Part shown: positions 3,648-31,600 of the stretch, piece by piece
Position numbering within the stretch: the first letter of the stretch is position 1
How the letters are laid out: each line of letters begins with the position of its first letter
Origin: Owenia fusiformis
Lineage: Eukaryota
Direction: 5' to 3'
DNA length: 64,000 bases
Assembly (NCBI GenBank): GCA_903813345.2
Contig: CAIIXF020000001.1
Span: forward strand, 20,088,001-20,152,000
The notes under the pieces: model-generated
Database searches by the model: none
The model's input: only the letters and a program-made list of their open reading frames with translations
Told to the model about the DNA's origin: nothing
Translations under genes and position numbers: made by a program

Positions 3648-4486
3648 CTACAATCAAATTTTTTATTCTGTCAATCAGTTCATATGGTTAGAATAAGGAA
3701 AGAATGTGATGTAACCACGTGTCTACTTACTAGCTTGTTCTATGTCATCCATCGGACTAGGTTACATCGTGGAACGCAGCCAAACACGAGAATGAAGCCA
3801 GTATTCTGAGGTTATAAAATCTAAATCTAAATAATTTCCCATTTGCAGCCCCTTGGAGATTTCCGGAATTGAACCAAGTATCGAACGTTGCGATCTTTCA
3901 ACTTTAGTTCGTTGTTTTTTCACCACCTTATGTGTACTGTTTTCATTTAGGAGGCGGTCTTATTTGAATGCATCATTACAGGTCTTTATGAATCAATAGA
4001 TCAATAAACAGCTCTAAAAATACAATTTAGCAGTTTCTTTCATTGCGTACTGCGCATGTTAGGCACGAAAACAATTTAGCAGTTTCGTTCGTTGCGTAAT
4101 TGGGCCTTCTATAATCAAAAGCAAATACTCGGAAAACATTTTCCAAAATATTTACTTCCGATTTCCTTGAAGACATGATTGGGTGACACGTCATTGACAC
4201 GTGATTAAGTCACATGATCGATACAGTAACTAGTCACGTGATCAGACATGTGTCACGTGTCAGTCACGTGAGCTTGCAAAATGGACGATCTAAATTTCCA
4301 AAAATTCGGCTAAGATCAAGATAGATATGCTGTTGCCTTCAGCGTCCTGTTCGACTGCGTTCCACGATGTAACCTAGTCCGATGGATGACATAGAACAAG
4401 CCGGTAAGTAGACACGTGGTTACATCACATTCTTTCCTTATTCTAACCATATGAACTGATTGACAGAATAAAAAATTTGATTGTAG
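3648..4486. repeat. About 132-bp inverted duplication bracketing the promoter
   Basis: 3648-3779 is the near-exact reverse complement of 4355-4486. Confidence 0.9.
4045..4290. promoter_or_regulatory. Probable YME1L1 (possibly bidirectional) promoter with an E-box cluster
   Basis: CACGTG four times in 4198-4272 (three as GTCACGTG), GTCACATG near 4209, ETS-like ACTTCCG near 4154, NRF1-like TGCGCATG at 4051, YY1-like CAAAATGG near 4277; locally CpG-rich. Confidence 0.6.
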
Positions 4487-4921
4487 CGTATTCATGTAAA
4501 AAGTTTACTCCCATCCCTCAAAGAACCTTCTTACTCACGTGGTACTAACTCTCCGGGGCATATCGAAACCAAAATGCCCCGCAAAACCGTTAATTTGAAT
4601 TTCAAGTCTACCCTGTCTTGGAAAATCAATGATTGTGAGGCTCACACTATACCGTTTTTCTTCAAACTTGTTCTATTAAAACCTTCACAGAAATACCTTT
4701 CAGTCGAGACATTGCCTTTGTTTACAAAGTCCCTCGTTTTAGCGGCGTTTTGGTCCCCAGATGTGAGAAGATGCAAATCTTCAGAGATTTCAACTAAACG
4801 CCTCGATATATCGCCAGTTCTTTTATTATTCTCCCCTATATTTTGCTCAAGGACTCCCATTACAACCCTCCATCGCTGCATCAACATATTTATAACATTA
4901 TACGCAGCAATATAAAAAAGT

Positions 4922-5080
4922 CCTACGCAACTGTTCGATATTGACCAAAACGCCCCATTGTCTTCCAAAACGCCCCGCAGAGTCTATGACTACAGACGTG
5001 TATAGAGAAGGTATATAGATCCAACGGGGCGTTTTGGAAGAGAACGGGGCATTTTGATCAATTTCGAATAGATCCGTAGG
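4922..5080. repeat. Imperfect inverted repeat / small MITE-like hairpin
   Basis: Arms at about 4922-4977 and 5024-5080 (TTCCAAAACGCCCCG / CGGGGCGTTTTGGAA). Confidence 0.65.
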
Positions 5081-5094
5081 AAATTGAGTGAGTT

Positions 5095-5540
5095 AGTACC
5101 GCGTGTTACTCAGACCGTCTCAAAGTCCTAGACATGACAACACTGGCCTTCGGAAGACTCAGAGGTGACATGATAGAGACTTACCAATACATAAACAACC
5201 TTTATAATATAGACTCCAATTCACTTTTCCCTGGTTTACAACCACAGGACATACACCATACAAGAAGGTGCAATACACAATATCTCCGAAAGTCACATTG
5301 CAGTACAACCTTAAGACAGCAAACGTTTAGTCAGAGAGTTATAAAACAGTGGAACTAATACCAGAATGGGTAGTAAATGCACCAAGTGTAAATCAGTTCA
5401 AAAACAGATTAGACTCTCACTGGTACAATAACCCAATGAAATATGACCATACAGTGGACTACCACTTTATACACTGTTACTAACTAAATATGAACAAATT
5501 CAAAAGTATTGATCGGTTAAACAGGCAATTTATGCCTACT
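5095..5540 (+). mobile_element. CR1-type LINE 3' fragment
   Basis: ORF 5134-5358 reads RLRGDMIETY..FSQRVIKQWN, followed by PEWVVNAPSVNQFKNRLD. Confidence 0.8.
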
Positions 5541-5542
5541 TA

Positions 5543-6022
5543 GGGGCGGGGTCAAAATATCAATGTTCATATGGAGACGAAAGTAATTTCGTTTGGACAA
5601 CAACCCCCCCACCCCCCCTCTAGACGAAAGCTTAGGTCACTTCAAAAAAACATTGATTTATGAGAGGCATAATCGTATCCTATTTGCCGGGTTATTATTA
5701 GGGTGAATTAACACACGTTCGCAATTTAATTGCATTGAACTCTTCAAAAGGAGGAGGTAAAAGTACGGAATTTATTTGAAAAATGATCGAATTATCGTCT
5801 TTATCTACCGATATTTTGGACCTATCACACAAAAAAGCTCACAAACTATTGAAAACAAGCCTTTTTATCAGAACATAGCGCCAGAAAAAGTCCAAGTATT
5901 TTTTGTATATCAGATCCGAATTATCGATGTTTTTTTGGTCAACGAAAGTGCCCAAAAACCCCCTCCCCCCTCGCGAAAGTACTTTCGTCTCCATATGAAC
6001 ATCGATATTTTGACCCCGCCCC
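5543..6022. mobile_element. PIF/Harbinger-type MITE
   Basis: About 48-bp TIRs (GGGGCGGGGTCAAAATATC..ATGTTCATATGGAGACGAAAGTA) flanked by TTA at 5540-5542 and 6023-6025. Confidence 0.8.
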
Positions 6023-6324
6023 TTACCGTACTAACTTATAACTTATATAAAGATGGAATGATTGAAAGCAGTTTTCCTCTGTAGGGGGAAATGGTCATGA
6101 TTATCGCACGGTCCTAATTATCGCACAATTTTCCCAAATAGCCAAATCATGCACCCACCTCTTATAAACCAGTGTGTTTTAGGAGTAATTTATCTAAATC
6201 AGGTAATAATAAAAGGTGCATCAAGATCTATATGCAGCAGTGGTGAAATATGGTTGGAAGGATCAATACATGAAATATCAATGGGAGAAACTTCCGTATT
6301 TAAATTTTTCATCTTTGATTTCAG

Positions 6325-9300
6325 CAACTTTTGCTGCCTGCTTCACAACTTGTCTCAATCCTAAACACTGTGAGGAACTTGTCAGTACCAAAGAAACAAC
6401 ACAAGAAAGATACAACCAGAACACTAGAAAATGAGGAGATAAGCAATGAGGTATGACATCTTCCTTTCATTTTAAAGGTCACCTTTTAAAATGCAAAGGG
6501 AGTGTACTTTTTCTTTCAACTTTAGTTTTTTCAATATTCATTTTGCGAAAGTTATAGTTCGAAACATTGATCAATATTTTCAAGAAGGTACAGTGTAGTT
6601 TTATATGCCATGAATGCAAGTTAGAATCAATATACGTTCATGTAATCACACATTTTTTTATTCTTGTTTTAGAGAATTCACAAAGCTCTTGGACTGGAGG
6701 GACTGCCACGAGACCTAAAGCTTGAAGACTACTGTCCCATCAGAGCCATCATACACAGTGTTGCACCAAACACCTCACCAAATAGGAGCCATTCTCATGT
6801 CTCTGCTAATACTTTCTTTGAAAACACAAATGGTAAGATGTGGAACAATTTATGAATAAATAAAACAGATGTACATGTACATTGATTCAGAATCTAAGAT
6901 TTATAGACCCAAGAAAACACAACTTGTCTCTGTTATGAGCTTTCCTTAGTGTTTTATATTAGGCAGTATTAAATTCCATTTGATTGAACCTATCTTATAC
7001 ATGTATATTGTATATGGTATATGATTGTGTATTTGTGCTATGCATATCCCTAACAACTATTGAGCAAAAGTTTAATGCATGAAATGATCATTGCATTGAA
7101 GCCTTTGAGACTATAGATAAAACATCCAAAGTTTTCTTGTGCCAGTGATATATATCTGCCTATTTGATATTTTGTGCAATGTATGTTATGCCTATTCTTT
7201 GTTGTACCATATTTTAGGTTTCCCTGTAGAAGATCTGTATGTTAATCCAGTAGCTCCGTCTTGGCTGACATCTCAACTTCTTCAAAGGCATACACCACCT
7301 GCTGGTAGGCTTCTAGAACTTATATTTATCACAAAATCTTTAATGATATTCAAAACTTGTGAGATTTCATTGAAACGAAATGTGTTAACCATCAGGGTTT
7401 TTTATTGTCCTTTCAGATTAGGAATCTAACATTAATCATTTATAGTACTGTGCAACATCATAACTAGTTGGTTAAAAGTATAGAATATCTGTATCCATGA
7501 TGATTAAATCGCCATGTTAACTTTTAATTCCAGTTCTAGTCCAGAAACGTCATTTCCAGCAGAGAAAAAAGCGTGGAATGGGTCAAGAAGAAGAAGACAA
7601 CTCATTCTCATTCAAACTCGGATCTGTAAGTTGATGATTTGAAAATTGAAAAATTGTGTGCACCATTAACGTGCAATGTATGCACAATGTTTTTTTTAAA
7701 TTTTATTATTTATATGTCAAACCATCAGTTTTTGTTAAAAACATGGTGAACTGGGATTTTAAATCACAAACCCAGCATTCCTGCGTCAATTCTTGCATGT
7801 ACTCAATTTAAATAAACATTCAATGTAATGAATCTGTCACCAACAGGTATTTGACAAATTGAATGACAATAGAAACAAAAAACAAAACTTCAAGACGATG
7901 TTGTCTCAGTATCAAGACAAGCCAGACATCCAAGGGAAGCTAGAACAGGCATTTGGTAAAGGTTACGCTGCAGCTGAGAGTGAGCTAGGGGGCAAGGGTG
8001 TCACTACTGCCAAACAAGGGTCAGCATTTGCAGGTACAGTGAGAAAGTTCCTCTGGTATGCTTTGGCCCTATGGCTCATCTACAATGCCCTGCAGTTGTT
8101 CAGCATGGCAGGAACAAGTAAGTAGGATTTGAAAAATACTCATTTACTTTAAAGCATGTTCATTTCAGTCAAACTGTACACACAATGTTAAATTGCTACT
8201 GGTTTGTGATTTACATGATTGATCAGCATTTTATTGTTTGAATTAATGATGAATGAAAATTTGTTAATATAATATATAGTTTTACATGATAAATGCAATA
8301 TTTTCTCATTAGTATGGTCTTGTTGAACTTTGCAAGCATTGCTTGAATGAATTTTTTAACTATATATAGTGAGCTAATTCCAGTCCATTTGACTCCAGTA
8401 ATTGAAATGATCTGATTTTCTTCTTTCAGATATGAGGGGACTGAACATCCTACAACAGGAGAAGTATGAGATCAACCCTGAAGAAATCAATGTCTCCTTC
8501 AATGATGTGAAAGGGGTAAGTCATAAACATTGATGTCAAAGGGAAGATAAACTATGATATTGAACTGAATCACTTGAATTAAAGGAACATTGAACCATAT
8601 AGATGTTAAAATGGATAAAAATCTTTTTCTCGCATGATTTAAAACCTTCTATGATGATTCTGTTTTGGAAATATGTATCAAGTTGCATTTAAAGTCGGTT
8701 GTTGCCATGTTTAGACCAAGGATTGAAAGTGTCCACAAGAAACCACATAAGATCTGGAGGCCCTGTTGCATATTTTTTCCTTTAATTTACAGGTAGATGA
8801 AGCCAAATCAGAGCTACAAGACATAGTTGAATATCTGAAAGACCCAGAGAGATTTAAAACATTAGGAGCTAAACTACCCAAAGGTAAACATTTCATAACA
8901 TCTATTCTTATACTTATAGACAGGTTATTTTTTATTTTTGGTATTTTTGAAGTAATGGAACAAAGGACAAGAGCCCTTCCCCTCTTCACTTGAGCTGATG
9001 AACATTAAAATGTCATGTGACTCACATTAATATCAATTTTTACATGAAGTATGGATTTCCTTCTGACATTTAATTTGCAATAAGTATGTTGATGTCTTGA
9101 TTCATAATTTAACATTTTACTGAAAAATAACAGAACACAGTTTAAATCAAGTAAAGTAAAGTTAAATTGTCAAGTTTTGTTGTATTTGTAGGTGTTTTGT
9201 TGGTAGGGCAGCCAGGTATTGGAAAAACTCTCCTTGCAAGAGCTGTAGCAGGTAAAAAATTAGTTTTAATGGCCCTTCAATCGTTTTTTTTTAATATGTG

Positions 9301-12300
9301 AAAACACGAAGGTATCAGGATAAACCATGATAAAAATGTATACTGCCTGTCACAATGACATCTATTCAAATTATGCAAATAAAACCTCCAGCAGTTTAGT
9401 TGTCCCAAGCTATGTCACTATATTCAACAAGTTTAATTAATTGACAGAATATAGGGCAAACACTTGTTACTATTCCTTTTTTATATTTTATGGTGTAACT
9501 ATTATACACTCCCTTGGGTGTCCAGATCTTATATAGATATTATATGGTTTTAATTAAAAAATAAATAAATAATAACAAAACCAAATATTATTAAAAATAT
9601 AATAATGACTATAAGTAAAAAAAATTATTTTGCTATGATCACCCATATTTTGCAATTGGCAGTGGTTTAAATGGTCAAAATTCCTTCCGTAGGTGTCATT
9701 GGGAATTTTTCTACAGCAAATGTCAGTGATATTCCAAATCAAAATTTTATTATTGTATCATACAGTTTATTCTGTAAAATTCAAGATTTTTCTCCTATAG
9801 GTCAAGCAGGGGTGCCCTATTTCCAGGTGTCAGGGTCTCAGTTTGACGAGATGTATGTAGGCGTTGGTGCCAAAAGGATTCGAGAATTGTTTGGTATGTC
9901 CTAATTTAAGCCACTGCCCTATTTGCCTGCCATACATTTGGATGACACTTTTCAAATATTGCCATGAGAAATATGGCATGATTTGAAAAATGGCATACCA
10001 ACTACCTGTTTGAAACCATGCCTAATGGGTACGTTTTTGAAATCTGGCATGGTTTCATTCAAGTGAAGTTTAATTTAGTAAAGCACCTAAAATGCTATAA
10101 AAATACCTGACTTTAAACAGGGGAAGCTGGGGTTCCATTTTTCCAATGCTCTGGCTCAGAGTTTGATGAAATGTTTGTCGGCACTGGAGCAAAAAGAGTC
10201 AGACAACTGTTTGGTGAGTATTCTATGTAATTTGAGTCCAGTAATCTGGGCAAATAAAATGTGTGAACAAAAATTTTAACAATAGCATCATGTCTAGCGA
10301 GCAACCTTAACAGAAAATTGTCACAATTTTAAAATACTTTTGGGTCATATCATTCTTTCAACAATCATCTCTATTTTTCTAAAAAATTCCCATATAATGC
10401 ATACTATTATGTGTTCATTTCTCTATAAATGTGTTCACCACATTTATCAATTAACTTAATAGACATTTGTGGCAAATTGAGCACTTTGAATCTTGAATAA
10501 CTTTACCTATTTATAACATACCACAGATCTTTTGGGATTTGAGATGATAAAGAATACATTGGTAGGTCAATTGAACATGTTGGTTGCACTTTTGTCACTC
10601 CCCTCTGATTCTGCCTTTAAACAGTTACTTCCTAACTAAAGTAGATACAGTAATCATTATGAAATTGCCTAGTTTAATCAGCATAATCAGCTTTTTCCAA
10701 GTTACCCCATTTCTTGTAAAATGTATCTTTTGCATATGACAGTGATATTCCATACTTGAAGTTATTGCAGCGAGTCAAGAATTTACCTTGCACTCAGCTG
10801 AAAATGTTTTAACCTTTTTCTCGCTTGATAAATGCATTATTCAAAATCAATACTATGCATGATGTAATCATGAAAATGTTAATATATATATAACATGTGT
10901 ATGAATGTTATAGGTTCAGCTAAATTGCGAGCTCCTTGTGTGATATTCATAGATGAGATCGACACTCTGGGTGCTAAACGTACAAGCTCACAGATCCATC
11001 CCTATGCAAATCAAACCATTAACCAGCTGCTTGCAGAGATGGATGGGTAAGCTACTCTCTCTCATTCCAGTCTACACTTAATGCCCTCTTGGCTTACAGC
11101 AAGGGTTACACCAAGTGCTTTTTAGGCTTACGGCAAATGTGCTTGAGGCTTATACTAAAAGCTTGCCAAGGTTGCACCAAATCCTCTAGGGCTACACCAA
11201 ATCCTTTCTAGGGTTGCACCAAATGCTCTCAAGGGTTACACCAAATGCTTTCTAGGCTTACAGCAAATGCACTTGAGGGTTACACCAAATGCTTTCCAAG
11301 GATATATCAAATCCTCTCTCGGGTTACATCAAATGCTCTTCAAGGTTATAGAGAGAATCTTCATCCAAAACATTAAAATGGACTGGTCCAAGTTATCACT
11401 CACCTCAAAAAGAATGAATGTACTTGCATGTATACTGATCTCTTATTATAAGACTTATATAACCTAGTGTAATATTGTGACATCTTTTTGTGCCTATTTT
11501 CATAAATCATAATAAAGTTATTGATATTGATAGACACTATTTTTATCCATGAATATATACAATGTTAAATACATTTACACACTCCCCTCCAGGTTCCAGC
11601 AGAATGAAGGTGTCATAGTGCTGGGTGCTACAAATAGAAGGGACAATCTAGACAAGTAAGGCTATAAATATTAGGGCTTTGACAATGCATTGAAATTGCA
11701 GTGTTAGTTCTTAGACCGCGGTCAGTTCAGTTCGAAATCTATTCGATTCAGTCTTTTACAGAACATTAATTCACATTAATTAATATCTATTCAGGAATGT
11801 TTAGTGAGCAAAAAGACCATTCACTGTCACATAAAATGATAATACCGTTGTAGCAAGTGAAGATTTTGGCCTTATTGATGCTCTTTTAAAAGTCTTAAAG
11901 CCCATTTTGGGGCTATTTTACTACCCCAATGATATTCTTCATTGCCTGATACTAAAATTGATATTCATTTTTATTGAGACTAGATCCAAGAAATTTTTGA
12001 ATCTGGAAATAGTATTATTCCTTACAAATAATTCACATGTCCATGTATTTTAGAGCTCTTTTGAGACCAGGAAGGTTTGATGTAGAGGTGAGGATATTCT
12101 CCCCTGACTTGAAGGGCAGAAAAGACATAATAGAACTCTATCTCAAGAAGGTCACGGCAGATTCAAGTAAGTATGCACATCTCAGATTGACTCAAAGTGA
12201 TATGTAGTGGCTGACACAAGTAACTGATGTTCCCATACATCACTTATTACAAGCCAGATAAACCATAAGGATTTTTTCAAGCTTGTTACTGAACTGCCTT

Positions 12301-14743
12301 GTAAATCAGGTACCTTGAGCACTCTTATAAAGCACTACATAGTCTGACTTACTGTATAACTGAAGCTTGTCATAGGCTGACAACTTTATTTATAAAATTA
12401 TATTTGCTCTTGTCTGACAATGTAAGATTACATCTTCTAATTGGCATGGCTTTAATTATTTATACACACCAGTGATGGTTGATATTGGATAAAGTAGATA
12501 AAAATGGAGGCAAGTAGACATTGAGATGCGATCACTGAAATTGTATTCTTTATTTTCGCCAGCTTGCGATTGTGAGAGGTTGGCACGGGGCACTACTGGC
12601 TTCACAGGGGCAGACATAGAGAACATGGTGAATCAGGCAGCCCTGAAGGCAGCTAAAGATGGCAGTCTGGCTGTGTCTATGGCAGACTTGGAGTGGGCAA
12701 GGGACAAGGTACTAATGGGTAAGTAAATTCAAGGAGAGTTCAGTAAAATATGTATTAAGTAAACAGTTAAAAGTTTAAGTATAAGGGATTAATAGAGATT
12801 CTGTATAACATAATTATAATTGATGAGAATGCACAAAAGGCAGTAAGAGAGGCAACACATAGTTTTAGTTTTATTTCACTGTCATTGTTGTAGGGCCTGC
12901 AAAGAAGAACAGAATTCCTGATGAGGAGACTAACTGGATGACAGCATACCATGAAGCTGGTCATGTCCTTGTAGCCCACTACACCAAGAATTCAACACCC
13001 CTACATAAAGTCACCATCATACCCAGAGGAATGTCACTCGGCCATGTGAGTATATCATTATTTCATAGATCTAGATTTAGTATAGTTTATATGTTGAATT
13101 GGGTGCTTCAAATATTACCTCTTGCACTGACACCCCCTTCCTATTTTGGCTGAACTCCAATATTGCATCCAAGGATGTACGTTGACACATGATTAACAAG
13201 CTTGAGATACTGTAAATGTAGAGAGAATATATGAGCTATGCTATGTAGTAATACTTATTGATTTTTGGGTTCATGTTTTATGTTGTTTCAGACTGCCTAC
13301 ATCCCTGAAAAAGAACAATACAACCATAGCAGGACACAGCTGATGGCCCAGATGGACACTGCTATGGGAGGTAGAGTGGCTGAAGAACTCATATATGGAG
13401 CTGATAAAGTCACAACAGGTATTGCTTTGAGAGTAAATCCATATTTTTAGTTCTGTAAGGCTATGTGTGGTTCTATTTTCCTCAGACTGCTTTGAAATGA
13501 TGTAATCCATGTTCTGTATAATACTCATTTTGTTCAACTTTTGTTAACTTAAGCTTTTATAAATGGAAATTTGTTAGGGAAGGGACGATGCTTTGCATGT
13601 ATTAAATAATACTAATCCCTTCATATTTTGTATTGTCACTCATTTTTCTGTACATGTACATGCATAATGTATTCATATATGTAATGTTCTGCAGGAGCAT
13701 CCAGTGATTTCCAGAGTGCCACGGGTATAGCCACCGCCATGGTGAGACGGTTTGGCATGTCAGATAAGGTACTTCATTCCTTTGCTCAAAATAAAATGCT
13801 CAAAGGCAATTCCTTTGCTCAAAAATAAACTGCTCAATTAAGGAATAAAACTGGTCAAATTTGATTTGATGATAAATATTTTGTCATTACATATCATTGT
13901 TTTTGTTTCATCTCTGTACAATTTAAACAGACTATGCTATGCTATGTAGAATGTCAATACTGTCAATTAACGTTTGAAGTAAATACTGTAGAATAAAATA
14001 CTTAAGTAAAGGGATATGAAAAATATTATTAAACAATATTGTGATGAGAAAACAAATGCATGTACTTAGAAAATATTTCTTTTTAGGTTGGTGTTCGGGT
14101 GTTCAGTGATGATGATGGTGCAGATGGGGGATTGACCATGGTGAAAGTGAATGATGTCAGCCCTGCAACTCAAGAACTTATAGATAGTGAAATAAAAAGA
14201 CTGCTTCAGGTAAGGGACAATTTAGAGTCAAATTCAAATATGGGATACAATAAACTGGTAAAATCCAAAAGCCACTGGGATCAGCCTCGTGTTTGGAATA
14301 GCATTTAAAGGTTCATTAATAAGAAAGTCAGTGGAAGATTTGAGAGGTTTTCAGATTACAGAGGCATTGAGATATACAGGTTTTACATTTAGGTCATGTT
14401 AACATAAAATAGATTAAATTAATATGAAATTAACATTACAACTGGTTCATTACACAAATCGAACTGTATGATGCACTTTGCATGCTTGTTTGATGTAAAA
14501 AATGTAAGGATCTTGCTTAGATCTTTTCATTTAATTTAAGACATTTAGAAATAAACAGCATACTGTATTTTAACATTATTGTGTGTTTTTCAGGAGTCAT
14601 ACGAGAGGGCAAAAGCAATATTAAAAGCACACTCTGTGGAACATAAACTCTTAGCTCAAGCTCTAATGAAATATGAGACACTAGATGTTGATGAAGTTAA
14701 AACTATAGTAGAGGGAAGAAAATTGATCAAGCAACCCTTGTGA
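6325..14743 (+). CDS. YME1L1: ATP-dependent zinc metalloprotease YME1L1 (i-AAA protease, FtsH family), multi-exon; first coding exon unresolved
   Basis: Phase-consistent GT-AG exons: 6325-6450, 6673-6832 ([11 protein letters not shown]), 7218-7304, 7534-7625, 7847-8117 (TM segment [16 protein letters not shown]), 8430-8515 (VSFNDVKG), 8793-8883 ([29 protein letters not shown]), 9192-9251 (Walker A GQPGIGKT), [9801-9893 or 10121-10213], 10914-11046 (Walker B IFIDEID), 11593-11655 (GATNR), 12054-12166 ([12 protein letters not shown]), 12563-12718, 12894-13045 (HEAGH zinc motif), 13292-13418 (GGRVAEEL), 13695-13768 (GASSDF), 14087-14209, 14594-14743 (TGA stop). Confidence 0.95.
9801..9893 (+). 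CDS. YME1L1: YME1L1 alternative exon A (pore loop 1): (G)[30 protein letters not shown](G)
   Basis: ctatag|GT...TTG|gtatgt; 93 nt, phase 1-1; open frame; paralogous to 10121-10213. Confidence 0.85.
10121..10213 (+). CDS. YME1L1: YME1L1 alternative exon B (pore loop 1): (G)[30 protein letters not shown](G)
   Basis: aaacag|GG...TTG|gtgagt; 93 nt, phase 1-1; closer to the usual YME1/FtsH consensus GEA.VPF...[18 protein letters not shown]. Confidence 0.9.
11085..11350. repeat. Degenerate ~21-bp minisatellite in a YME1L1 intron
   Basis: Repeated GGGTTACACCAAATGCTTTCTA-like units. Confidence 0.75.
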
Positions 14744-17700
14744 GGATCACCTGGGTCTAACTAATTCAACAAATTGAGAATATATCTTGCAGTGGAGAGA
14801 CAATGTTAAGACCATGGGGGAACTGAGATGTCTCGGGGTCTCGGGGACAAAAACTCAAATCAGGACTTTTGCTTTAAGTCAAATTAATCAAAAGTAGTAT
14901 AAAGAGTGAAATGAAAAATATCATGTTATTCTGATGTGATTTAATTGAAAACTCATGTACATAACTTTAGATTTAGCATCTAAATTATTTATTTTAAGTT
15001 GCAGAAAACAGCAAGAGTTCTGTTGATTTTAGTGCTATAGGTCATCATGAATGGTGTTCTGTTTTTCACATCATCTGCTTCTATAAAGAGGACTACTCAA
15101 ATTGGAATCATTGTAAATTTACATACTGACAAGAATGCAAGATTTTTAAGTGTTACTGCATTTTAATTTTTGCATATTAAATATTCAAGGTAGAGTTATG
15201 TTGATTGTGATATAAGGGAGAGGGGAAAGGAAATTGGTTTATGACCAGTAGATCTGAAATGCTTTAAAGGAGACACCCCGTGAAGAATGATTAATGTTAT
15301 AGAAAAAATTCAAAAGAGAACAGTGATAATGATAAATATATATTCTGCATGAGTCTCAGTGGAACATATTCAAAATATAGTGAATAAAAAAGAATGTTTA
15401 TTTTATACATCGTTATATCAACTGGGAAATGACTGCCATATTAGAAAAGGTAATATGTTTTCTCTTAGCAATTTGGAAATAATAAAATTAAATATCATAC
15501 GAGAGAATGTTTATGTTCATTTATTTTTTATTATATACAATGCTATGAGCTGGTTGATGTATAAAGAAATATGTGGAGGATGGACTTGCGTGATTTATAT
15601 GGGGAATGCCAATGTCTCGCTAAATAAACTTACAAACAGCAAAATGGTTTCCACTCTTAGACAAGTTGGTGAAAATTGCAGGCCGTATTATTCTTTTTAT
15701 AGAAAATTTGGTTTATTTTACAGATGGCAATTTTAATCTATCCTTTCTAAAAGTTTCTGGGAGTTCCCTTTGTAAATGACAAATAGTAACAACTTTCATT
15801 CATTAAAAAAATTAGGATAATATTCCCCATTGAATTACAATATAATATGATGATCTTTAATCCAGCCAACTAACAACTGCGGAATTGTACTGGCTTTGCA
15901 GGGTATGTAATCGTTGACCCGACATAACAAACAACATTGGTTCATTTCTTTCAAAGAAATTTATTCACTTCACCATAAGTATGAGAAACAAGAAATGTGT
16001 TGCAGTGAAATATACCTCATTGAATTTCACTGTCCCTACAAACCCTAATTTACCAGCAGAAACAACATATTATATCCCATAATAGTCAAGTTTCTACTAG
16101 CAACAAGGTTAAAGCAGGCCATGTTTTTTACAACTCAATAAATGACAAGTTGTCCAAGAAGATGATACATTACAAACAGTACATACCATTCAACTAGATT
16201 CAAATTAATTGTAATATTATGTCTGTTGTTACTTCATATTATACTTAACATATGGGCCAATCTTGATTATAATTTTCAAACTAATAAACAAAATAGACTT
16301 TTCTTGAGAAAATATAATGAGACAAGAGTGTGTAATAATCTGTCTGAATTGGATATAACAAGACAAACAAAGTGTCCAAAAAGTAATGAGATCATATGTT
16401 TCTCAATACTTTTAGAACACCCTGTAAATAGAACAGAGATGTGCAATTCTGGCTAAAATATATTATCTACCATACCATTTTATAAATTTACATATGAATT
16501 GAATTGTACATTCATGAATCTGAACTGTTTTCAAATATTCTAATATTTCAACATGACTGCAATTCATCTTTCAATAATGCTTTGTTCAAATGTTTCTGGG
16601 TCACCCTGTGATCCAGGTGTACGCAGGTTAACATGCAACCTGTCCTAATACATACGACCTATCTGGGCATATCATGACATCAATATGCAGAGTGAATTAA
16701 CCACCTGGCTATTTCACTCAGCCTACCAAATGACTCGGCAATGCACATAGGTGATGTTATGTTCTAACCATTATACAATATTTCATTAGATGCTGTAGAA
16801 TAAATATTGGAATAAATTCACAACCATTTATTGTGTCATCTGAATAGGTTAACAATACATTTTTCTGAGTAAACTTTAGATAATGCTATTCTAATATAAG
16901 AAGAAGTTTCCACTATGTCTGAAGAAAATTTTCAACTCACTTTATGTACACAAGCATAAATAAGATAATGGTATAAAAACGGACGGTTATAAAGTACTAC
17001 TCTATACAAGTATGGCTGCATATACCATATATATATATAAAATACATTATAATGTACCATGTAAGATATTGGTTTTTTCATTTACATTTTATGGATACAT
17101 TATATAATGCAAGTAAAACATCCTATATTACCCTTACTGGAATCCGTTGTTAAAACTGATAAACATAAAAATTAATTTATTGTCTATACATATTAACAAT
17201 TTTCTAGCTTATGGATTTCAACTGATGTACATAATAATGTTGATTTAAAAATTATTAAATAACTGTGTAGAAAATACCAAAACCCAAAAGTAATTAAAAT
17301 GTAATTATGTGAAAATGCTAACAGGTGCTATGAATGGATTAAAATAATAATATTAATTATTATTCTATACTCAAAACTCATGACTTAAATTCACACATGT
17401 AACAAGAAATCACAATTGATAACGTCCTTATATAAACTTCTTGCGGCGTTTTACTTACTTTTATTATGTATACTGTACATTGTTTGGTAAGGTTTAACTC
17501 AGGTAAATTAAGGGCACTGATTATGATCAACAATCTAGATTTACAAATGTCCTTTTATTAAGAGGATCACATCACTACAATCGATCTAGCATCGTTCCAA
17601 ACATATACAGAATATATTCGATTAAATAGAAGTGAAAACATCTTACACAAGATAAGCTGGTCATTCGTCCAACCTTTTTTATTTTTCATTTATACTAAGG

Positions 17701-19608: not shown

Positions 19609-22600
19609 TCAATGTCTGAAGAAGTTGAATAATGAGTTCTTTTTGTTTGATGGCAGGGCCATTACCATTGGTACCTTGTTTTTATGTGTGATGGAAATCT
19701 AAAAACACAAAAATCGTAACTTATACAATACATGGGATTAACATATTTAAAGTTAGTATCAGATCTAGCGAACAACCTTAGAACTGTTTCATTTCTATGT
19801 TTGGCTCATATCATGCCTTGTCATGTCTATTTTCTAAAAATTCCAAAAGTGTGAACTTTATTTATATGTATGGGGAAATTTTAAACATTAATCCCCCCAT
19901 TTTTGCACTTTGAATCTCTCTCTCTCTCTCTTTGCACCAATCTATAAAATATTGTGGATCTTTTGGGAGATATTATATTTGAGATCATAGGGAATACATT
20001 AAGATCAATTGAATATGTTGATTGCAATTTAGCGTGGGATTCAGAGTGAAAATTACGACACTGTTAGGATACTAATGTTATTCAATGATTCAAGTGAAAT
20101 ACAGACTTTCTCAGGCAGAATATTTTCTATATTTCACTTGAATCAGGACTTTTGCTAGATATCTCACGGTTGTCTTATCTGATTAGCATTGCCATTGAAT
20201 ATCGCCAGATATCCCACGACATGTGACCCGGTTTTGACCAATCATACTGTCGCTAGCTAGATAGTGATATAATAATGAACAAATATTTCACTCTATTGAG
20301 GTGAATACCTGTACATCTTTCACAAGTGATATTCCACGAAGCCCGAAGGGCAAGTGGAATATCACCTTGTGAAAGTGCTACAGGTATTCACCGAAAATAG
20401 AGTGAAATATTTGTTTTATTATATCACCGTCTAGCTAAACATCCCTAATATTATTAAGTCATAGGTTAACATTGAAATACATTGAATCTACTCGGTTCGT
20501 CTGCCATTTTGACTTACACTGAACGAAAACAAATTCTTTGAAAATTCCCGGGAGCGTGGGATATCGCTAGATATCTCACGGTTGTCTTATCTGATTAGCA
20601 TTGCCATTGAATATCGCCAGATATCCCACGACATGTGACCCGGTTTTGACCAATCATACTGTCGCTAGCTAGATAGTGATATAATAACTTAAATTATTCT
20701 AAGTTCAATATAAATATCACACCAACACTTCATGTCACACCCTGTATACTTACAGTACATGGAGGCTGCATCCATGGTTCCCCATCTATTTGCATGGGCA
20801 ATCTTTTTCTGGTCCTGAAATGTTACAAAGTACTCCATGTATATGATTCAGAAAATCCTTTTTTGTTTCACTATAAGACACAATATGAATCGTGATTCAT
20901 GAAAATGAATTTATTTCAAGGTTAGAATATTCATATTAACCGCATTGTAAAACTATGCAATGACATGATTTATCAAAAGACTTCTTAAAAAACTACCACC
21001 AAACAAGATTGCTGAATGAATGAACTGCACAACATCTTTATCCTCATGTGTAGCACATGTGTGAATTAAAGAAAATAGATAAATGGTTTTTCGAGAATCG
21101 TGACGACAAAAAATTAGGATTTCAATAAAAATAAAGCCACCTATTTTCAAAGATAAACCTTTTTAGAAAGGCCCTGCCCACTTATATTGAGAATGATGTT
21201 TGTTTACCTGATTACAACTTGTGAACATTGTGCAAGCCTCTTCCCTGAGCTTCTCATTCCTGTCTTCACTTGGGCTGCATGCATTGCACTCTCCAGCCCC
21301 ACAACCTCTATCAACTGGTCACCAATATCTAAAAGAAAACAATCAATTGATCATCAATATCTAAAACAAGCCAATCAACTGGTCACCAATATCTAAAAGA
21401 AAACAAAGCAATCAATTGATCATCGGTATCTAAAACAAGCCAATCAACTGGTCACCAATATCTAAAAGAAAACAAAGCAATCAAGTGATCATCAGTATCT
21501 AAAACAAGCCAATCAACTCGTCATCAATAGCTAAAACAAATCTATCAACTGGTCATCAATATCTAAAACAAACAAATCAACAGGTCATCAACATCTTAAA
21601 CAAATCAATCAACTGGTTAATATATAAAACAAACATATCAACTGGCCATCAATATCTAAAACAAACCAATCAACTGGTCAATGCATAAAACAAACCAACA
21701 TGTATCAGATCTTTGTTTTATTTAGTGCAATAACTCAGATGCGAGTGGGTGGTTACCAGTTTCACCACCAGATGGCTCGTTGGGTCACATTCATTGTTGG
21801 TGTAGTAGTAAGTTCCCCCTAACTTAAATATTCATCTGTTAGTGGTTCAATTTTCAAATCACCCTTATGTATCTAATAGTTATGCAAATCAAAATATGTC
21901 CAGTAATAGAAAATGTTATCTGTCCAATTCAAGAAAATATATTTCACCTTTAGTGATTTTATAACATGGGGTCTATGAGGAATCTCCCCAAACTAGAAGT
22001 CAGATTTTCAAATAAATTAAATTTTCAAAGTTGATAAACAATTTTCGAAACCATATTTCAAGATGTATATTACTTTTACATGTACTCAAATATGTCATCA
22101 CTGTGACTGGATTTTGAATATTTAATGACATAAATCAAAATTATTGCTACTCGCAGTTAGTCTATTATCAATCATAAAATAAATAACAAAAAATATTTTC
22201 AAACTTGGAAAAATACATAATGTAATGAGGCCACTTTATTATATCAATCTGTAAGTAAAAACCTTTTTGTCCCTCTCAGTAAATAACCTACTTATTTCAA
22301 ATACATACCTTGTACTGCCATACTGAGATCAACTGATGACATGCTACTTGTGGAATATTCACGATCCTTGTCCTTTTTGGGTGATTTCTTATTCCTTTTT
22401 TTCTGGCTTGGGTTATCTCCCCAGAGATCTGTCCCACCATATATGCTAGGTATGTTTAGCAAGGCTATACCCTCTAATGTTGGACCATTGGCTAGATCTA
22501 GTGAATAGCCATCACACTGAAAAACAGAACACATAAAGAGTTTCCAAGTACTGAATGTGTATGATACTCTAATGACTGGATATGTACTTGATCTTGGGGT

Positions 22601-28600: not shown

Positions 28601-31600
28601 ACATACAGCAAAAACTAACCATTATTAGCATATAATTTATTCACAATTGACTATTTTAATTGTGGGAAACTCGAAAGTGAGGGATAACGTACCTGGCACC
28701 TTGTTTCCCTCCACTCTTTGGGTTGATAAAGACGAGAAGAGGTGAGGTATCATTCATCGGGGTGATCTGAAATGAACTCTGGCCCTGTCAGGTGACGCAG
28801 AGGGAAGAAAGACAAAGAATAGCGGGTTAGTTACAAAGCAGTAAAGCACAGTCAGGTCAAAGGGCAAATCAAGGGTAAGAGGGGGGATACCCCAGAATCC
28901 ATAGATGACCCTCTTTCCATATAAAGATGAACTTTTAGGGGTTCATATACTAATTCTGAGGTATTCCCACCTCTTAATAAGGGTAATCTTATGTATGTCA
29001 TTTTCAAATATTAGAAAATCAACACAATCATTCAATGTACTTTTGTTATAAATAACAAAAAAAGTTGACTTTTAATATAAAAAATTTCATCCATTAAGAT
29101 ATGGTTACTTTTTACAAAAGGCAGAATTTCATGACAGAGATTCGTCACTTAATTATGATGTCAAAGACAGACCACTATTGTAACAGATTATATTATATTC
29201 TGATACTACTCTAGCATTGGTTAAATATTTGAGATCAAATTGTCATGTAGACCAATCATTGGATGTTAGAAGTGCTTTGATTAACCTGTCACGTGAAACA
29301 AACATGAAGATTCACGATAGAAACACTAAAAACCATACTCCGAGGAGTGCATTAAAACATTAGACAAAATTGATCAGAAAACATTTTAATAGGGAGAACA
29401 TGTATATGTTGGTCTCCATGACAATTATGCTTCTACATACTGGTCTTATAATAGTTATATATTAATATGTCTATCCCAACAACTTTACATTAGCACAGAT
29501 AAGCTTATTAATCTGACTGTATGAAATCCTGAAATTCAGTGCTTTGGAAAAACACTATCACAAATCGTATTTAAATGCGCATCTAAACTTATCTGTATTA
29601 ACCATTGTCTCCACCAAACTTATAACTATGAAAGCTAAAGTATCTATTTGTATTCCCATGTATTTCTTGTTATAATGTGAAATAGGCAGAATTGTGTATT
29701 AATTTTTTATTATTTCAAATAGGCATTGAGAAATTTATTTGGTGTTAGAAATCGAAAAGACAGAAAATGTGTATAGCTTCTTATTATCTCAATTTGACAC
29801 TGACAAATTTCAAGGAAAGAATTTGAAATCTCAGTGTAAAAAACTAAACAGTTAATCAAAAGTGCTTGAAATATTATCATCCCATAACCTAGGAAAAGCT
29901 CTTTAATAACACAGAATCAAAGGATTGTCTCTCACAAGCTTCTGTTAAATATAAGAACAAGAAACATTTAAATTTGAGTTAACAAATTCTTGAAAAGTTG
30001 AAAATGCCAAGAATACATTTTAACATGAAAAGCATATAGGTAAAGGTAAAATTGCTAGAACTTGCAAATATGCATCCTTATGGGAAACTGTAACTTTTGA
30101 AACCTTATATAAGTAAGAAAAATAGCCTGCACCTCATGCCCAAAGAAAGCACTAGATGCATATGCAATATTTAAAAATCTTATGTAATGTATGTGTCATG
30201 TAACTGATAGCTTTGTTTTTTTACAAATTTTAGAAAACCATTCATATGTAGAGCTGTAAAATTAATAACTAAAAATAAATAAATGTGACACAAAATCCCA
30301 AGATTTAATTACCTGCAGGCCGCCACTTCCAGAATTTTCACCCTCGTTACTTTTTTTACTAGAATTCATTGTGCTCTTACGTTCCTAAAAATAAAAATGA
30401 GGAATGATTTAAAAAATAGTCTGCACAACAATTGTATGAATATTAAAATTGTAAATGTAATATTTCTTGCGGTGAAACTTCTATTTGAACATGACTGTAT
30501 TCACGCCTTCTATAAACTGTAAACAAAGTCAACATTTCACCCAGGGTATATTCGGGAACAAAACCCCTGGTAATACTTGTAATGAGTGACGTTATAATGG
30601 AGGGCCATAGTAATGGCGGACCATAATGAATATCCGAAAAATGTTGGTGAGTTGTCATGTTCGAATCATAATATAGACCTCAGAGCAGGTGTAATATCGT
30701 CGAATACACCCCTTGGGCTAGGCACAAAAGTTTTTGAACCCCTCACTCCCTTCGGTCGTTTGGGGTACAGAAAACGTTTGTGCCTAGCTGCGGGGTGTAT
30801 TCGACAATATTACCCCTGCTCTTTGGTCTATATTTCTTAATTCATCTACTTGGTGCTTATGATCCATATGAGCTTATGTTTGTGTCTTTCCTGAAGTTGA
30901 CTATACCTGAGAGTGAAAAGACACTTGTTGATACAAATAACTATTATGTATTATTGTGGTACAGATTTCCGATATTTCCCCAACTATTGGTAAGAGTATT
31001 TTATAGATCCTACTGCCACCAGTAGAATCAGTTGACCTTATTGTGAAAAACTAGGGGGAGGGAGTATACTTACTAGGACAGCTGGACATATCGCATTGGG
31101 GGGAAGGATGTGATCTCTAAATTCACCAAAGTCACATTCAGGTTTTACTTGTGATGCACATTTATTGTGGAGCTGAAAAAAAGAAGTCAATAGAACACAA
31201 TTATATACATGTACATTGTCATTGTATACAAATCTGACTAGTATATGCCTTTTATTATCCCATGACATCAGTATTACAGAAAATAGAAATAGAAGCAGTG
31301 TTTTCAATTTTACTGGTTTTAAGGCGCTCACATAAATAATACCAGACTTCTCCTGTGTAGTACACAAACTTACATTTAGATGGCACCAGCGGCAATGAAG
31401 ACCAGTCACGCCATTGTAGGTTTTTATTGATTTTCTACATTTGTCACACTTGCCAGGGCTGTTCCCCTCAACCCAGTGATGCTGCATGTTCTGTAAGAAA
31501 ACATTATGTATAAATTCATGAATTTAAGAAATGTTAAAACATGCCAAATGGAAACCTTTTCACTTTTTAATATTCTTTATTTATGACTTCTTCAATATCT

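What the first reader, a model, noticed from the sequence alone, without database searches (positions are those of the whole stretch)
9658..10256. Competing RNA pairings around the YME1L1 exon pair (loop-out duplex, donor-masking strand, intronic hairpins)
Seen: GGCAGTGGTTTAAAT (9658-9672) pairs over 15 bp with one G-U to ATTTAAGCCACTGCC (9904-9918), looping out exon A. The adjacent TATTTGCCTG (9920-9929) can pair with TGGGCAAATA (10247-10256; two G-U) downstream of exon B, looping out B. GGCATACCAA (9992-10001) is complementary to the exon A donor TTGGTATGTC (9891-9900; one G-U). Two hairpins lie in the 227-nt intron: 9949-9965/9973-9989, and a perfect 12-bp stem TGAAACCATGCC (10011-10022) / GGCATGGTTTCA (10046-10057). 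Established: competing docking/selector pairings control MXE choice in arthropod Dscam1, 14-3-3zeta and Mhc. Inference: a similar structural switch operates here.
Basis: partly seen in the sequence, partly recalled or inferred. Interest (0 to 1): 0.78.

Follow-up and report, generated by a model that had tools for sequence, protein, structure and literature searches.

The report
Loop-out RNA stem at swappable exon pair
A marine worm's mitochondrial protease gene carries two interchangeable copies of one exon, and a strong RNA stem that could loop out the first copy sits beside them, but the proposed system of competing pairings is only partly borne out and remains untested.

Summary
All five pairings exist at the stated coordinates. 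Three exceed chance. The 15-bp duplex around exon A extends to -29.5 kcal/mol, reached by 0 of 200 shuffles, with predicted occupancy 0.77-0.97. The two hairpins in the 227-nt intron make it fold at z -3.9, reached by 0 of 500 shuffles and matched by only 4 of 281 window tiles. The two pairings that would create competition are chance-level: 9920-9929/10247-10256 and the donor-masking strand. Their predicted occupancy is about 0, and stems of that strength occur 5-9 times per kb. No second selector lies downstream of exon B.

RNA contigs from three runs join the upstream exon to A or to B, and A or B to the downstream exon. None joins A to B, so mutually exclusive use is supported. Steric hindrance, frame-shift decay and U12 incompatibility are excluded by the sequence.

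The gene is a YME1L homologue. One exon matches a protein named for the annelid Owenia fusiformis at 100%, and that protein contains only exon B. Conservation in relatives could not be tested.

Verdict: a real swappable exon pair with one plausible loop-out stem. A docking/selector switch is not shown.

The parts
9192..9251 (+). Constitutive exon upstream of the pair (Walker A region, [14 protein letters not shown])
   Evidence: tblastn with E. coli FtsH. Joints 8881>9190 (cut +2), 9249>9799 (cut +2) and 9248>10118 (cut +3).
9651..9678 (+). Upstream arm 'U' of the loop-out duplex. Core 9658-9672, about 130 nt upstream of the exon A acceptor.
   Evidence: Base-pair probability is 0.97, 0.97 and 0.77 in three contexts. 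No variant in the core in 3 covering contigs. 9653 C>T keeps its pair as G-U.
9801..9893 (+). Exon A, 93 nt. Encodes [30 protein letters not shown], the divergent copy, with Tyr in the pore-loop motif.
   Evidence: Joints 9249>9799 and 9892>10913. None of the 95 homologues checked has an A-like segment.
9896..9927 (+). Downstream arm 'D1' of the loop-out duplex. Core 9904-9918, at +11 to +25 of the exon A donor.
   Evidence: -29.5 kcal/mol, 0 of 200 shuffles.: + strand -29.7 against - strand -25.1. The 9903 deletion variant lies in the 2-nt bulge.
9937..10001 (+). Hairpin 1, core 9949-9965/9973-9989.
   Evidence: -24.0 kcal/mol, z -6.65. Base-pair probability 0.91-0.99. The minus strand folds at -25.9.
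10004..10064 (+). Hairpin 2: perfect 12-bp stem 10011-10022/10046-10057 with a 23-nt loop.
   Evidence: -21.4 kcal/mol, z -4.0. Base-pair probability 0.99-1.0. Variants 10029 and 10033 lie in the loop. Cross-complementary to U (-16.2) and D1 (-12.2).
10121..10213 (+). Exon B, 93 nt. Encodes [30 protein letters not shown], the canonical copy, with Phe in the pore-loop motif.
   Evidence: Joints 9248>10118 and 10212>10913. Identical to the segment in P0152 and close to all other spiralian homologues.
10247..10256 (+).
   Evidence: -10.8 kcal/mol. Base-pair probability 0.00-0.01. 10247 T>A in all covering contigs of 3 runs. 580 equal or better stems in the window.
10914..11046 (+). Constitutive exon downstream of the pair (Walker B region)
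   Evidence: tblastn. Joints 9892>10913, 10212>10913 and 11045>11592.

Best explanation
The locus is a tandem-duplicated, mutually exclusively spliced exon pair in a YME1L (i-AAA protease) gene. The copies encode alternative versions of the segment that carries the pore-loop motif: MYVG in A and MFVG in B.

One strong intronic duplex (core 9658-9672 x 9904-9918, extended 9651-9678 x 9896-9927) encloses exon A in a loop of about 230 nt. It starts 11 nt after the exon A donor. Two stable hairpins (9937-10001 and 10004-10064) fold up most of the remaining A-B intron.

Inferred mechanism:
- When the duplex forms, exon A and its moderate donor (GTATGT) are sequestered.
- The upstream intron is also drawn towards exon B, whose acceptor has a poor pyrimidine tract but whose donor is strong (GTGAGT). 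B is therefore chosen.
- When the duplex is prevented, for example by U1 snRNP or a protein at the donor, the good acceptor of exon A wins and the weak acceptor of B is bypassed.

Shown: the mutually exclusive joints, and the existence, stability and non-randomness of the three helices.
Inferred: any effect of the helices on splice choice.
For: - Exclusive use: three runs with spliced contigs show up>A, up>B, A>down and B>down joints and no A>B joint. In X19, one 194-nt contig carries up-A-down and another up-B-down.
- Other exclusivity mechanisms are excluded by direct reading of the sequence. Both exons are 93 nt, so frame-shift decay cannot remove double inclusion or double skipping. Both donors are U2-type. 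The last AG before the exon B acceptor is at 10082-10083, which puts the branch point at least 190 nt from the exon A donor, so there is no steric hindrance.
- Duplex strength: -22.1 kcal/mol core and -29.5 extended, reached by 0 of 200 shuffles.
- Predicted occupancy of the duplex: 0.97, 0.97 and 0.77 in contexts of 0.7, 1.7 and 2.2 kb. It is predicted to form as soon as the transcript reaches 9930, before exon B is made.
- Within the 6.2-kb gene, the duplex and hairpin 2 are the two strongest ungapped stems. Exon A is the only one of 12 exons enclosed by a stem of -18 kcal/mol or better.
- Intron structure: z -3.88, reached by 0 of 500 shuffles and matched by 4 of 281 window tiles.
- Strand asymmetry: the duplex favours the transcribed strand, -29.7 against -25.1.
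- Variants in the RNA-run contigs: none falls in the duplex core or the hairpin stems. 9653 C>T turns a C-G pair of the helix extension into U-G. The 9903 deletion lies in a bulge. 10029 and 10033 lie in the hairpin 2 loop.
- The arms are not a repeat family within the window. Intron depth in the RNA runs comes from single contigs.
- Precedent: in ATE1, an element upstream of the first exon copy pairs with an element in the intron between the copies (PMC7797038, abstract and section 14 read).
Against: - No orthologous intron could be examined, so there is no conservation or covariation evidence.
- The equilibrium model gives the duplex about 0.97 occupancy with no competitor. Yet A-containing and B-containing junction contigs have similar depth: X4 1390.9 against 881.8, X8 1119.1 against 1304.5, X19 13.9 against 47.2 (the tool warns that contig depth is a poor measure). 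A simple 'duplex means A is skipped' rule does not fit this without added kinetics or factors.
- Blocking U in silico raises the unpaired probability of the exon A donor only from 0.23 to 0.39. It leaves the exon B acceptor unchanged, at 0.51 against 0.53.
- The two hairpins fold as well or better on the minus strand (-25.9 against -24.0, and -22.3 against -21.4). This is expected of DNA-level palindromes and not of RNA-level selection.
- Against the real window, which is rich in inverted repeats, a stem this strong encloses about 7% of all bases. The duplex alone is therefore only modestly unusual.
- The variant argument rests on about 20 listed variants, with 11 more not shown, and coverage is uneven.
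Confidence: 0.4

Rival explanations
1. The helices have no splicing function. The hairpins are leftovers of a small palindromic insertion or of template-switch mutation. The 15-bp duplex is a lucky or recent complement. Exon choice is set by splice-site strengths and RNA-binding proteins.
For: - The hairpins fold equally well or better on the minus strand.
- The window holds 11 other loci with stems of -22.1 kcal/mol or better. The 4 tiles with z of -3.88 or lower lie at three of those loci. Reading these loci as foldback elements is inference.
- No competitor pairing is significant.
- A is used about as much as B despite a predicted duplex occupancy of 0.97.
- Protein-regulated exclusive exon pairs exist in C. 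elegans unc-32 (PMC3585155, search listing abstract only).
Against: - The two strongest stems of the whole gene both sit at its only alternative exon pair.
- The duplex encloses a conserved coding exon, so it cannot be the terminal repeats of one inserted element.
- There are no other copies in the window, and intron coverage in the RNA runs is a single contig.
- No variant lies in any stem, although flanking intron differs at about 3-10% of sites.
- The exon copies are old: only 9 of 22 third positions are identical in codons whose residue is conserved. Near-perfect intronic complements would have had time to decay.
Confidence: 0.4
2. One reading: a docking/selector-type switch. The adjacent blocks 9904-9918 and 9920-9929 pair alternately upstream (looping out A) or downstream (looping out B), helped by a strand that masks the exon A donor.
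For: - All the blocks exist.
- The architecture would resemble the bidirectional model described for srp (PMC6071210, discussion read).
- Arms of the GGCA..TTT type are enriched in the A-B intron: 2 of 23 window loci that resemble U lie in its 227 nt.
- U and D1 cross-pair with the hairpin 2 arms at -16.2 kcal/mol (1 of 200 shuffles) and -12.2 (0 of 200).
Against: - Base-pair probability is 0.00-0.01 for both supposed competitors in three contexts, and also when U or D1 is blocked.
- Their energies of -10.8 and -12.5 kcal/mol are matched by 580 and 313 stems in the window.
- 10247 T>A in all covering contigs weakens the B-side pair.
- Part of 9920-9929 instead extends the U:D1 helix.
- The donor-masking block forms the base of hairpin 1.
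- There is no significant partner downstream of B (60 of 200 and 83 of 200 shuffles).
- The cross-pairings with hairpin 2 would form a pseudoknot and cost about 20 kcal/mol compared with the cognate pairs.
Confidence: 0.07
3. The intronic hairpins are precursors of small RNAs (an intronic microRNA-like pair) or another structured non-coding RNA, unrelated to exon choice.
For: There are two adjacent hairpins of about 60 nt. Hairpin 1 has arms of about 27 bp and -24 kcal/mol.
Against: - No Rfam family comes near its gathering score. The best local hit is MIR7504 at 18 bits against 83, E = 8.
- From recalled knowledge of Drosha substrates: hairpin 2 has only a 12-16 bp stem, and hairpin 1 has a 5-7 nt loop and a stem shorter than typical.
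- No small-RNA data were available.
Confidence: 0.05

Closest known systems
Human/mammalian ATE1 exons 7a/7b (Kalinina et al. 2020, PMC7797038; abstract and section 14 read)
   Same: There are two tandem homologous exons used exclusively. An element upstream of the first copy pairs with an element in the intron between the copies, looping out the first copy. A sequence similar to the upstream element lies upstream of the second copy: here U at 9658 and the similar 3' arm of hairpin 1 at 9973, about 320 nt apart like the exons.
   Different: In ATE1 the two similar elements (R1, R4) compete for one shared partner (R3), the elements are conserved across vertebrates, and the model was tested by compensatory mutants. 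Here each element has its own cognate partner, no shared docking site is evident, conservation is untested, and no experiment exists.
Arthropod docking-site/selector systems (Dscam exon 6, 14-3-3 zeta, Mhc, MRP1), as summarised in Ivanov & Pervouchine 2018 (PMC6071210; abstract and discussion read)
   Same: Exclusive choice within a cluster of duplicated exons, with intronic complementary blocks next to the variable exons.
   Different: Those systems have one docking site complementary to a selector at every variant. Here only one strong pair was found, and no second selector.
Bidirectional pairing model (srp exon 4, RIC-3; described in the discussion of PMC6071210) and the duplication model for its origin
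   Same: The layout upstream element - exon A - downstream element - upstream-like element - exon B is what a duplication of an exon with flanking stem arms would give. The intron upstream of A hybridises to the A-B intron better than to shuffles (-81.5 kcal/mol, reached by 2 of 60).
   Different: Homology between the flanks of A and B is not significant (43 of 500 and 113 of 500 shuffles reach the alignment scores). The element expected downstream of B is degenerate.
Tandem-duplication-derived mutually exclusive exons in general
   Same: Equal length (93 nt), same phase, 71% DNA identity, and exclusive joints.
   Different: The gene and the protein part are new as far as the searches reach. 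No paper in the held library links YME1/YME1L with mutually exclusive exons apart from two unrelated human or mouse studies. The annotated protein of this species has exon B only.

Membership tests
Docking-site/selector competing RNA structures for mutually exclusive exons | A cluster of tandem homologous exons of which exactly one is included | tested here: met
   Joints up>A, up>B, A>down and B>down are present. No A>B joint appears in 4 runs laid, 3 of which have spliced contigs. Contigs can miss rare forms.
Docking-site/selector competing RNA structures for mutually exclusive exons | One docking site complementary to a selector sequence beside each variant exon | tested here: not met
Only U:D1 is significant (0 of 200 shuffles). 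The best partners downstream of exon B are matched by 60 of 200 and 83 of 200 shuffles.
Docking-site/selector competing RNA structures for mutually exclusive exons | The alternative pairings exclude each other (shared nucleotides or a pseudoknot) | tested here: not met
   Blocks 9904-9918 and 9920-9929 do not overlap. Predicted occupancy of the alternatives is 0.00-0.01, even with U or D1 blocked. Cross-pairings with hairpin 2 exist but are about 20 kcal/mol worse than the cognate pairs.
Docking-site/selector competing RNA structures for mutually exclusive exons | Conservation and compensatory change of the paired blocks in related species | not testable with these tools
   No genome is held for this window. 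The metagenome scan returned only FtsH-like matches of 49-61% identity, read as bacterial FtsH and with no close animal relative among the 80 loci kept. The run search gave a single coded organism. Within-species variants are compatible with the stems but few.
Exon loop-out stem (intronic complementary arms flanking an alternative exon) | Complementary intronic arms on both sides of the alternative exon, stable enough to form in the pre-mRNA context | tested here: met
   Core of 15 bp, extended duplex -29.5 kcal/mol. Base-pair probability 0.77-0.97 in contexts up to 2.2 kb. Predicted to form once the transcript reaches 9930.
Exon loop-out stem (intronic complementary arms flanking an alternative exon) | Disrupting the stem changes exon inclusion and restoring complementarity rescues it | not testable with these tools
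   This needs minigenes or antisense oligonucleotides.
Mutual exclusion by steric hindrance, U2/U12 incompatibility or frame-shift decay | A branch point within about 50-60 nt of the upstream donor, or one U12-type site, or an exon length not divisible by 3 | tested here: not met
   Read directly from the sequence. The AG-free zone before the exon B acceptor begins at 10084, at least 190 nt from the exon A donor. The donors are GTATGT and GTGAGT. Both exons are 93 nt.
FtsH/YME1 family AAA+ metalloprotease (the host gene) | AAA+ domain plus M41 peptidase domain along the gene | tested here: met
   tblastn with E. coli FtsH maps 12 exon matches from 8793 to 14851. The 100%-identical protein P0152 carries PF00004 and PF01434.

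The most novel reading that the evidence does not exclude
A minimal, single-stem RNA device controls exon choice in a spiralian. The 15-25 bp helix abutting the exon A donor, together with two hairpins that compact the intervening intron, decides between two versions of the substrate-gripping pore loop (Tyr or Phe) of the mitochondrial i-AAA protease. As far as the papers read here go (arthropod and vertebrate examples only), this would be an RNA-structure-guided exclusive exon choice in a further animal group, and I know of no AAA+ protease whose pore loop is swapped by splicing.
Probability: 0.3. Interest if true: 0.6.

Novelty: new member of a known kind. Interest (0 to 1): 0.4.

Why it matters
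If the stem works as proposed, RNA-structure control of exclusive exon choice would extend to annelids. In the papers read here it is documented only in arthropods and vertebrates. It would also show a simpler layout than the classic docking/selector scheme, with one loop-out helix. Independently of the RNA question, the exon pair gives this animal two forms of a mitochondrial quality-control protease that differ in the pore loop that grips substrates. The annotated protein P0152 contains only form B. This offers a natural experiment on pore-loop function. At present the splicing role of the RNA structure is a plausible hypothesis and not a result.

Tried and rejected
- Whole-genome search of the window's own assembly: none is held.
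I read them as bacterial FtsH. No close animal relative was among them and the loci were not used further.
- The look-up of sequencing runs listed 20 runs of one coded organism, and no listed holder is on record as RNA. The runs laid were labelled 'RNA?'. Three of them contain spliced joints.
- Protein searches for relatives that have an A-like exon:
  - The profile-free search of 1.84 billion representatives with the 30-residue exon A peptide gave 2078 hits. The top ranks were taken by multi-AAA proteins (spacing about 265 residues). No hit shared the diagnostic PYFQVSGSQ stretch.
  - The word-index search with the exon B frame found nothing.
  - The word-index search with the exon A frame gave 43 hits of 68-84% identity. 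The named ones are fungal peptidase M41 or FtsH-family proteins. None was a 100% match.
  - So the age and spread of the duplication remain open. Because gene models usually pick one copy, absence from predicted proteins is weak evidence.
- Homology of the intron flanks of A and B is not significant (43, 56, 113 and 118 of 500 shuffles reach the scores).
- Rfam: 11 weak matches, all far below gathering scores.
- Repeat-family origin of the arms within the window: rejected.
- Earlier notes of this scan: nothing on this genome or sequence.
- Literature: no paper on YME1/YME1L exclusive exons, and none on RNA structure at exclusive exons in annelids. Supplements were not consulted.
- The overall fold of 9600-10300 had z -2.69 with only 20 shuffles. 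It was superseded by the larger controls.
Full report
WHAT IS THERE

The window is eukaryotic DNA of about 33% G+C, and no whole genome is held for it. A tblastn search with E. coli FtsH maps a multi-exon FtsH/YME1-type gene on the + strand from about 8793 to 14851.

Two adjacent matches cover the same FtsH residues, 207-237. They lie at 9800-9892 and 10120-10212. The repeat finder reports them as a 97-nt direct repeat of 71% identity, spaced 320 nt apart.

One exon, 12893-13042, is 100% identical to a 728-residue protein that NCBI names as from Owenia fusiformis, an annelid. The next hits are mollusc, annelid, nemertean and arthropod YME1L proteins at 72-86% identity.

ARE THE TWO EXONS MUTUALLY EXCLUSIVE?

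I laid the contigs of four public runs of one coded organism on 8700-11700.

- Three runs (X4, X8, X19) contain spliced joints with GT..AG ends.
- The joints are 9249>9799 (upstream exon to A), 9248>10118 (upstream exon to B), 9892>10913 (A to downstream exon) and 10212>10913 (B to downstream exon).
- In X19, one 194-nt contig carries upstream-A-downstream and another carries upstream-B-downstream.
- No run shows an A-to-B joint or a joint that skips both exons. Contigs drop rare forms, so low-level double inclusion is not excluded.

With the stated cut offsets, the exact parts are:

- the upstream exon ends at 9251;
- exon A is 9801-9893;
- exon B is 10121-10213;
- the downstream exon starts at 10914.

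Junction contig depths for A against B are 1390.9 against 881.8 (X4), 1119.1 against 1304.5 (X8) and 13.9 against 47.2 (X19). The tool warns that contig depth is a poor measure, so I conclude only that both forms are common.

The classical causes of exclusivity that can be read from sequence are absent.

- Both exons are 93 nt, so neither double inclusion nor double skipping shifts the frame.
- Both donors are U2-type, GTATGT and GTGAGT.
- The last AG before the exon B acceptor is at 10082-10083. The branch point therefore lies at least 190 nt from the exon A donor, which rules out steric hindrance.

This leaves RNA structure, protein factors, or both.

THE OBSERVATION

All five pairings are present as described. 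Their weight differs greatly.

(1) The loop-out duplex, 9658-9672 x 9904-9918.

- It has 15 bp with one G-U and an energy of -22.1 kcal/mol.
- With flanks it extends to 9651-9678 x 9896-9927 at -29.5 kcal/mol. No shuffle of 200 reaches this.
- The extension pairs intron positions +4 to +8 of the exon A donor.
- Its base-pair probability is 0.97, 0.97 and 0.77 in contexts of 0.7, 1.7 and 2.2 kb. It is already 0.97 once the transcript reaches 9930.
- Twelve dinucleotide shuffles of the whole window give a mean of 1.17 ungapped stems this strong with a span up to 1000 nt. The real window has 29, in 12 loci enclosing 7.3% of its bases. I read most of these as large foldback repeats, an inference from their long arms.
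- The duplex is therefore clearly unusual against shuffles and modestly unusual against this genome's own background.
- It is 4.6 kcal/mol better on the transcribed strand than on the other strand.
- Its arms have no further copies in the window.

(2) The two hairpins.

- Hairpin 1 (9937-10001) folds at -24.0 kcal/mol with z -6.65. Hairpin 2 (10004-10064) folds at -21.4 with z -4.0. Each is reached by 0 of 200 shuffles.
- Their base-pair probabilities are 0.91-1.0.
- The whole 227-nt intron folds at -56.1 kcal/mol against -41.0 +/- 3.9 for shuffles. That is z -3.88, reached by 0 of 500.
- Only 4 of 281 non-overlapping tiles of 227 nt across the window reach that z.
- Within the gene, the duplex and hairpin 2 are the two strongest ungapped stems. 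Exon A is the only one of 12 exons enclosed by a stem of -18 kcal/mol or better.
- A caution: both hairpins fold as well or slightly better on the minus strand, at -25.9 and -22.3. That is what DNA-level palindromes do, and it gives no sign of RNA-level selection.

(3) The two pairings that would supply the competition.

- 9920-9929 x 10247-10256 is -10.8 kcal/mol. The donor-masking pair 9891-9900 x 9992-10001 is -12.5 kcal/mol.
- The window holds 580 and 313 ungapped stems at least that strong, about 9 and 5 per kb. The three local introns alone hold 12 and 5.
- Their base-pair probabilities are 0.00-0.01 in every context, and also when U or D1 is forced single-stranded.
- The donor-masking block instead forms the base of hairpin 1.
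- Position 10247 reads A instead of T in every contig that covers it in three runs, which removes one of the two G-U pairs.
- A direct search found no significant partner downstream of exon B. For 9896-9935 the best is -18.9 kcal/mol, reached by 60 of 200 shuffles. For 9650-9680 the best is -18.0, reached by 83 of 200.

VARIATION WITHIN THE SPECIES

Intron-containing contigs of three runs differ from the window at many sites.

- None of the listed differences lies in the duplex core or in the stems of either hairpin.
- 9653 C>T changes a C-G pair of the helix extension to U-G.
- The deletion at 9903 lies in the 2-nt bulge.
- 10029 and 10033 lie in the hairpin 2 loop.

This fits constraint on the stems. 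However, it rests on about 20 listed variants with 11 more not shown, and coverage is uneven. I count it as weak support.

RELATEDNESS OF THE ELEMENTS

- The upstream arm U resembles the 3' arms of both hairpins (GGCA..TG.TTT). Of 23 window loci that match U as well as the in-register site at 9961-9971 does (U's own site among them), two lie in the 227-nt intron.
- The hairpin 1 arm lies about 320 nt from U, the same spacing as the exons.
- U can pair with the 5' arm of hairpin 2 at -16.2 kcal/mol (1 of 200 shuffles). D1 can pair with the 3' arm of hairpin 2 at -12.2 (0 of 200).
- These alternatives would cross each other and are about 20 kcal/mol worse than the cognate pairs.
- This hints at a common origin by duplication, as proposed in general by Ivanov and Pervouchine (PMC6071210, abstract and discussion read).
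- Overall flank homology is not significant.
- The exon copies are old: 7 identical codons, 15 synonymous differences and 8 residue differences.

HOW IT MOST LIKELY WORKS (INFERENCE)

Exon A has a good pyrimidine tract and a moderate donor. Exon B has an A-rich, poor acceptor region and a consensus donor.

- If the duplex forms right after the exon A donor emerges, exon A sits in a loop of about 230 nt with its donor at the helix base. The duplex and the two hairpins then bring the upstream intron to within about 75 unpaired nucleotides of exon B, which favours B.
- If the duplex is prevented, the acceptor of A wins and the weak acceptor of B is passed over.

The difficulty is that thermodynamics predicts the duplex almost always, yet A is common. 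The model therefore needs kinetic competition, for example with U1 snRNP at the adjacent donor, or a regulator. In-silico blocking changes splice-site accessibility only slightly. I put the probability that the duplex affects exon choice at about 0.4. The probability that the helices are functionless by-products is also about 0.4. No Rfam family comes near threshold.

COMPARISON WITH WHAT IS KNOWN

- The closest tested case is ATE1 (PMC7797038, abstract and section 14 read). There, an element upstream of exon 7a and a similar one upstream of 7b compete for one element in the intervening intron. Here the layout is similar, but each element has its own partner and no shared docking site is seen.
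- The arthropod docking/selector systems require a selector at each variant. That feature was tested here and not met.
- I therefore do not file this as a docking/selector system. It may still work like a loop-out stem.

NOVELTY

- The annotated protein of this species contains exon B only. All 95 homologues examined carry B-like segments.
- No search found a protein with an A-like exon. This is weak evidence, because gene models pick one copy.
- No paper in the held library links YME1/YME1L to exclusive exons.
- The exon pair is thus a new member of a well-known kind. The RNA switch is an untested hypothesis of a known kind.

Noticed in passing
window 9801-9893 and 10121-10213: The two exon copies encode the segment aligned to E. 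coli FtsH residues 207-237. It contains the aromatic-hydrophobic-Gly pore-loop motif: MYVG in A and MFVG in B. That this is the substrate-gripping pore loop (FtsH Phe228 in the older numbering, Tyr354 in yeast Yme1) is recalled, not tested. Arthropod homologues have Leu at this position (ILVG).
   Followed up: partly
P0152, compared: The database protein that matches this gene at 100% contains only exon B, so the exon A isoform appears unannotated. Exon A's closest database segments are fungal and other YME1-like proteins at 68-84% identity.
   Followed up: partly
window about 10481-10600 (intron downstream of exon B): This short stretch has very high contig depth in the RNA runs (bin 10518-10618: 9436, 2749, 5156 and 49) and loose ends on both sides. 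It is probably a member of an expressed repeat family. The weak alternative partners of U and D1 fall here.
   Followed up: no
window 3648-4486; 44426-45426; 5542-6023; 4536-5105: There are large, nearly perfect inverted repeats: arms of 84 plus 47 nt about 600-670 nt apart, a roughly 1-kb palindrome made of many perfect arm segments, and arms of 20 plus 23 nt. They are likely foldback or terminal-inverted-repeat elements.
   Followed up: no
window tiles starting 20204, 30646, 37229, 38137: These four 227-nt tiles have fold z-scores of -15.8, -15.3, -7.2 and -4.9, far beyond the rest of the window. They coincide with three of the stem loci (20277-20416, 30699-30805 and 37206-37328, the last continuing to 38174-38347).
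   Followed up: no
P0269 (Adineta steineri protein): This rotifer YME1L-like protein model contains the same 30-residue segment twice, 34 residues apart (positions 215 and 249). It could be an independent duplicated exon read through by the gene model, or an annotation artefact.
   Followed up: no
window 10188, 10191, 10194 (exon B): All RNA-run contigs differ from the window at three consecutive third codon positions (GGA GCA AAA against GGG GCC AAG). All three changes are synonymous, which points to a divergent haplotype.
   Followed up: partly
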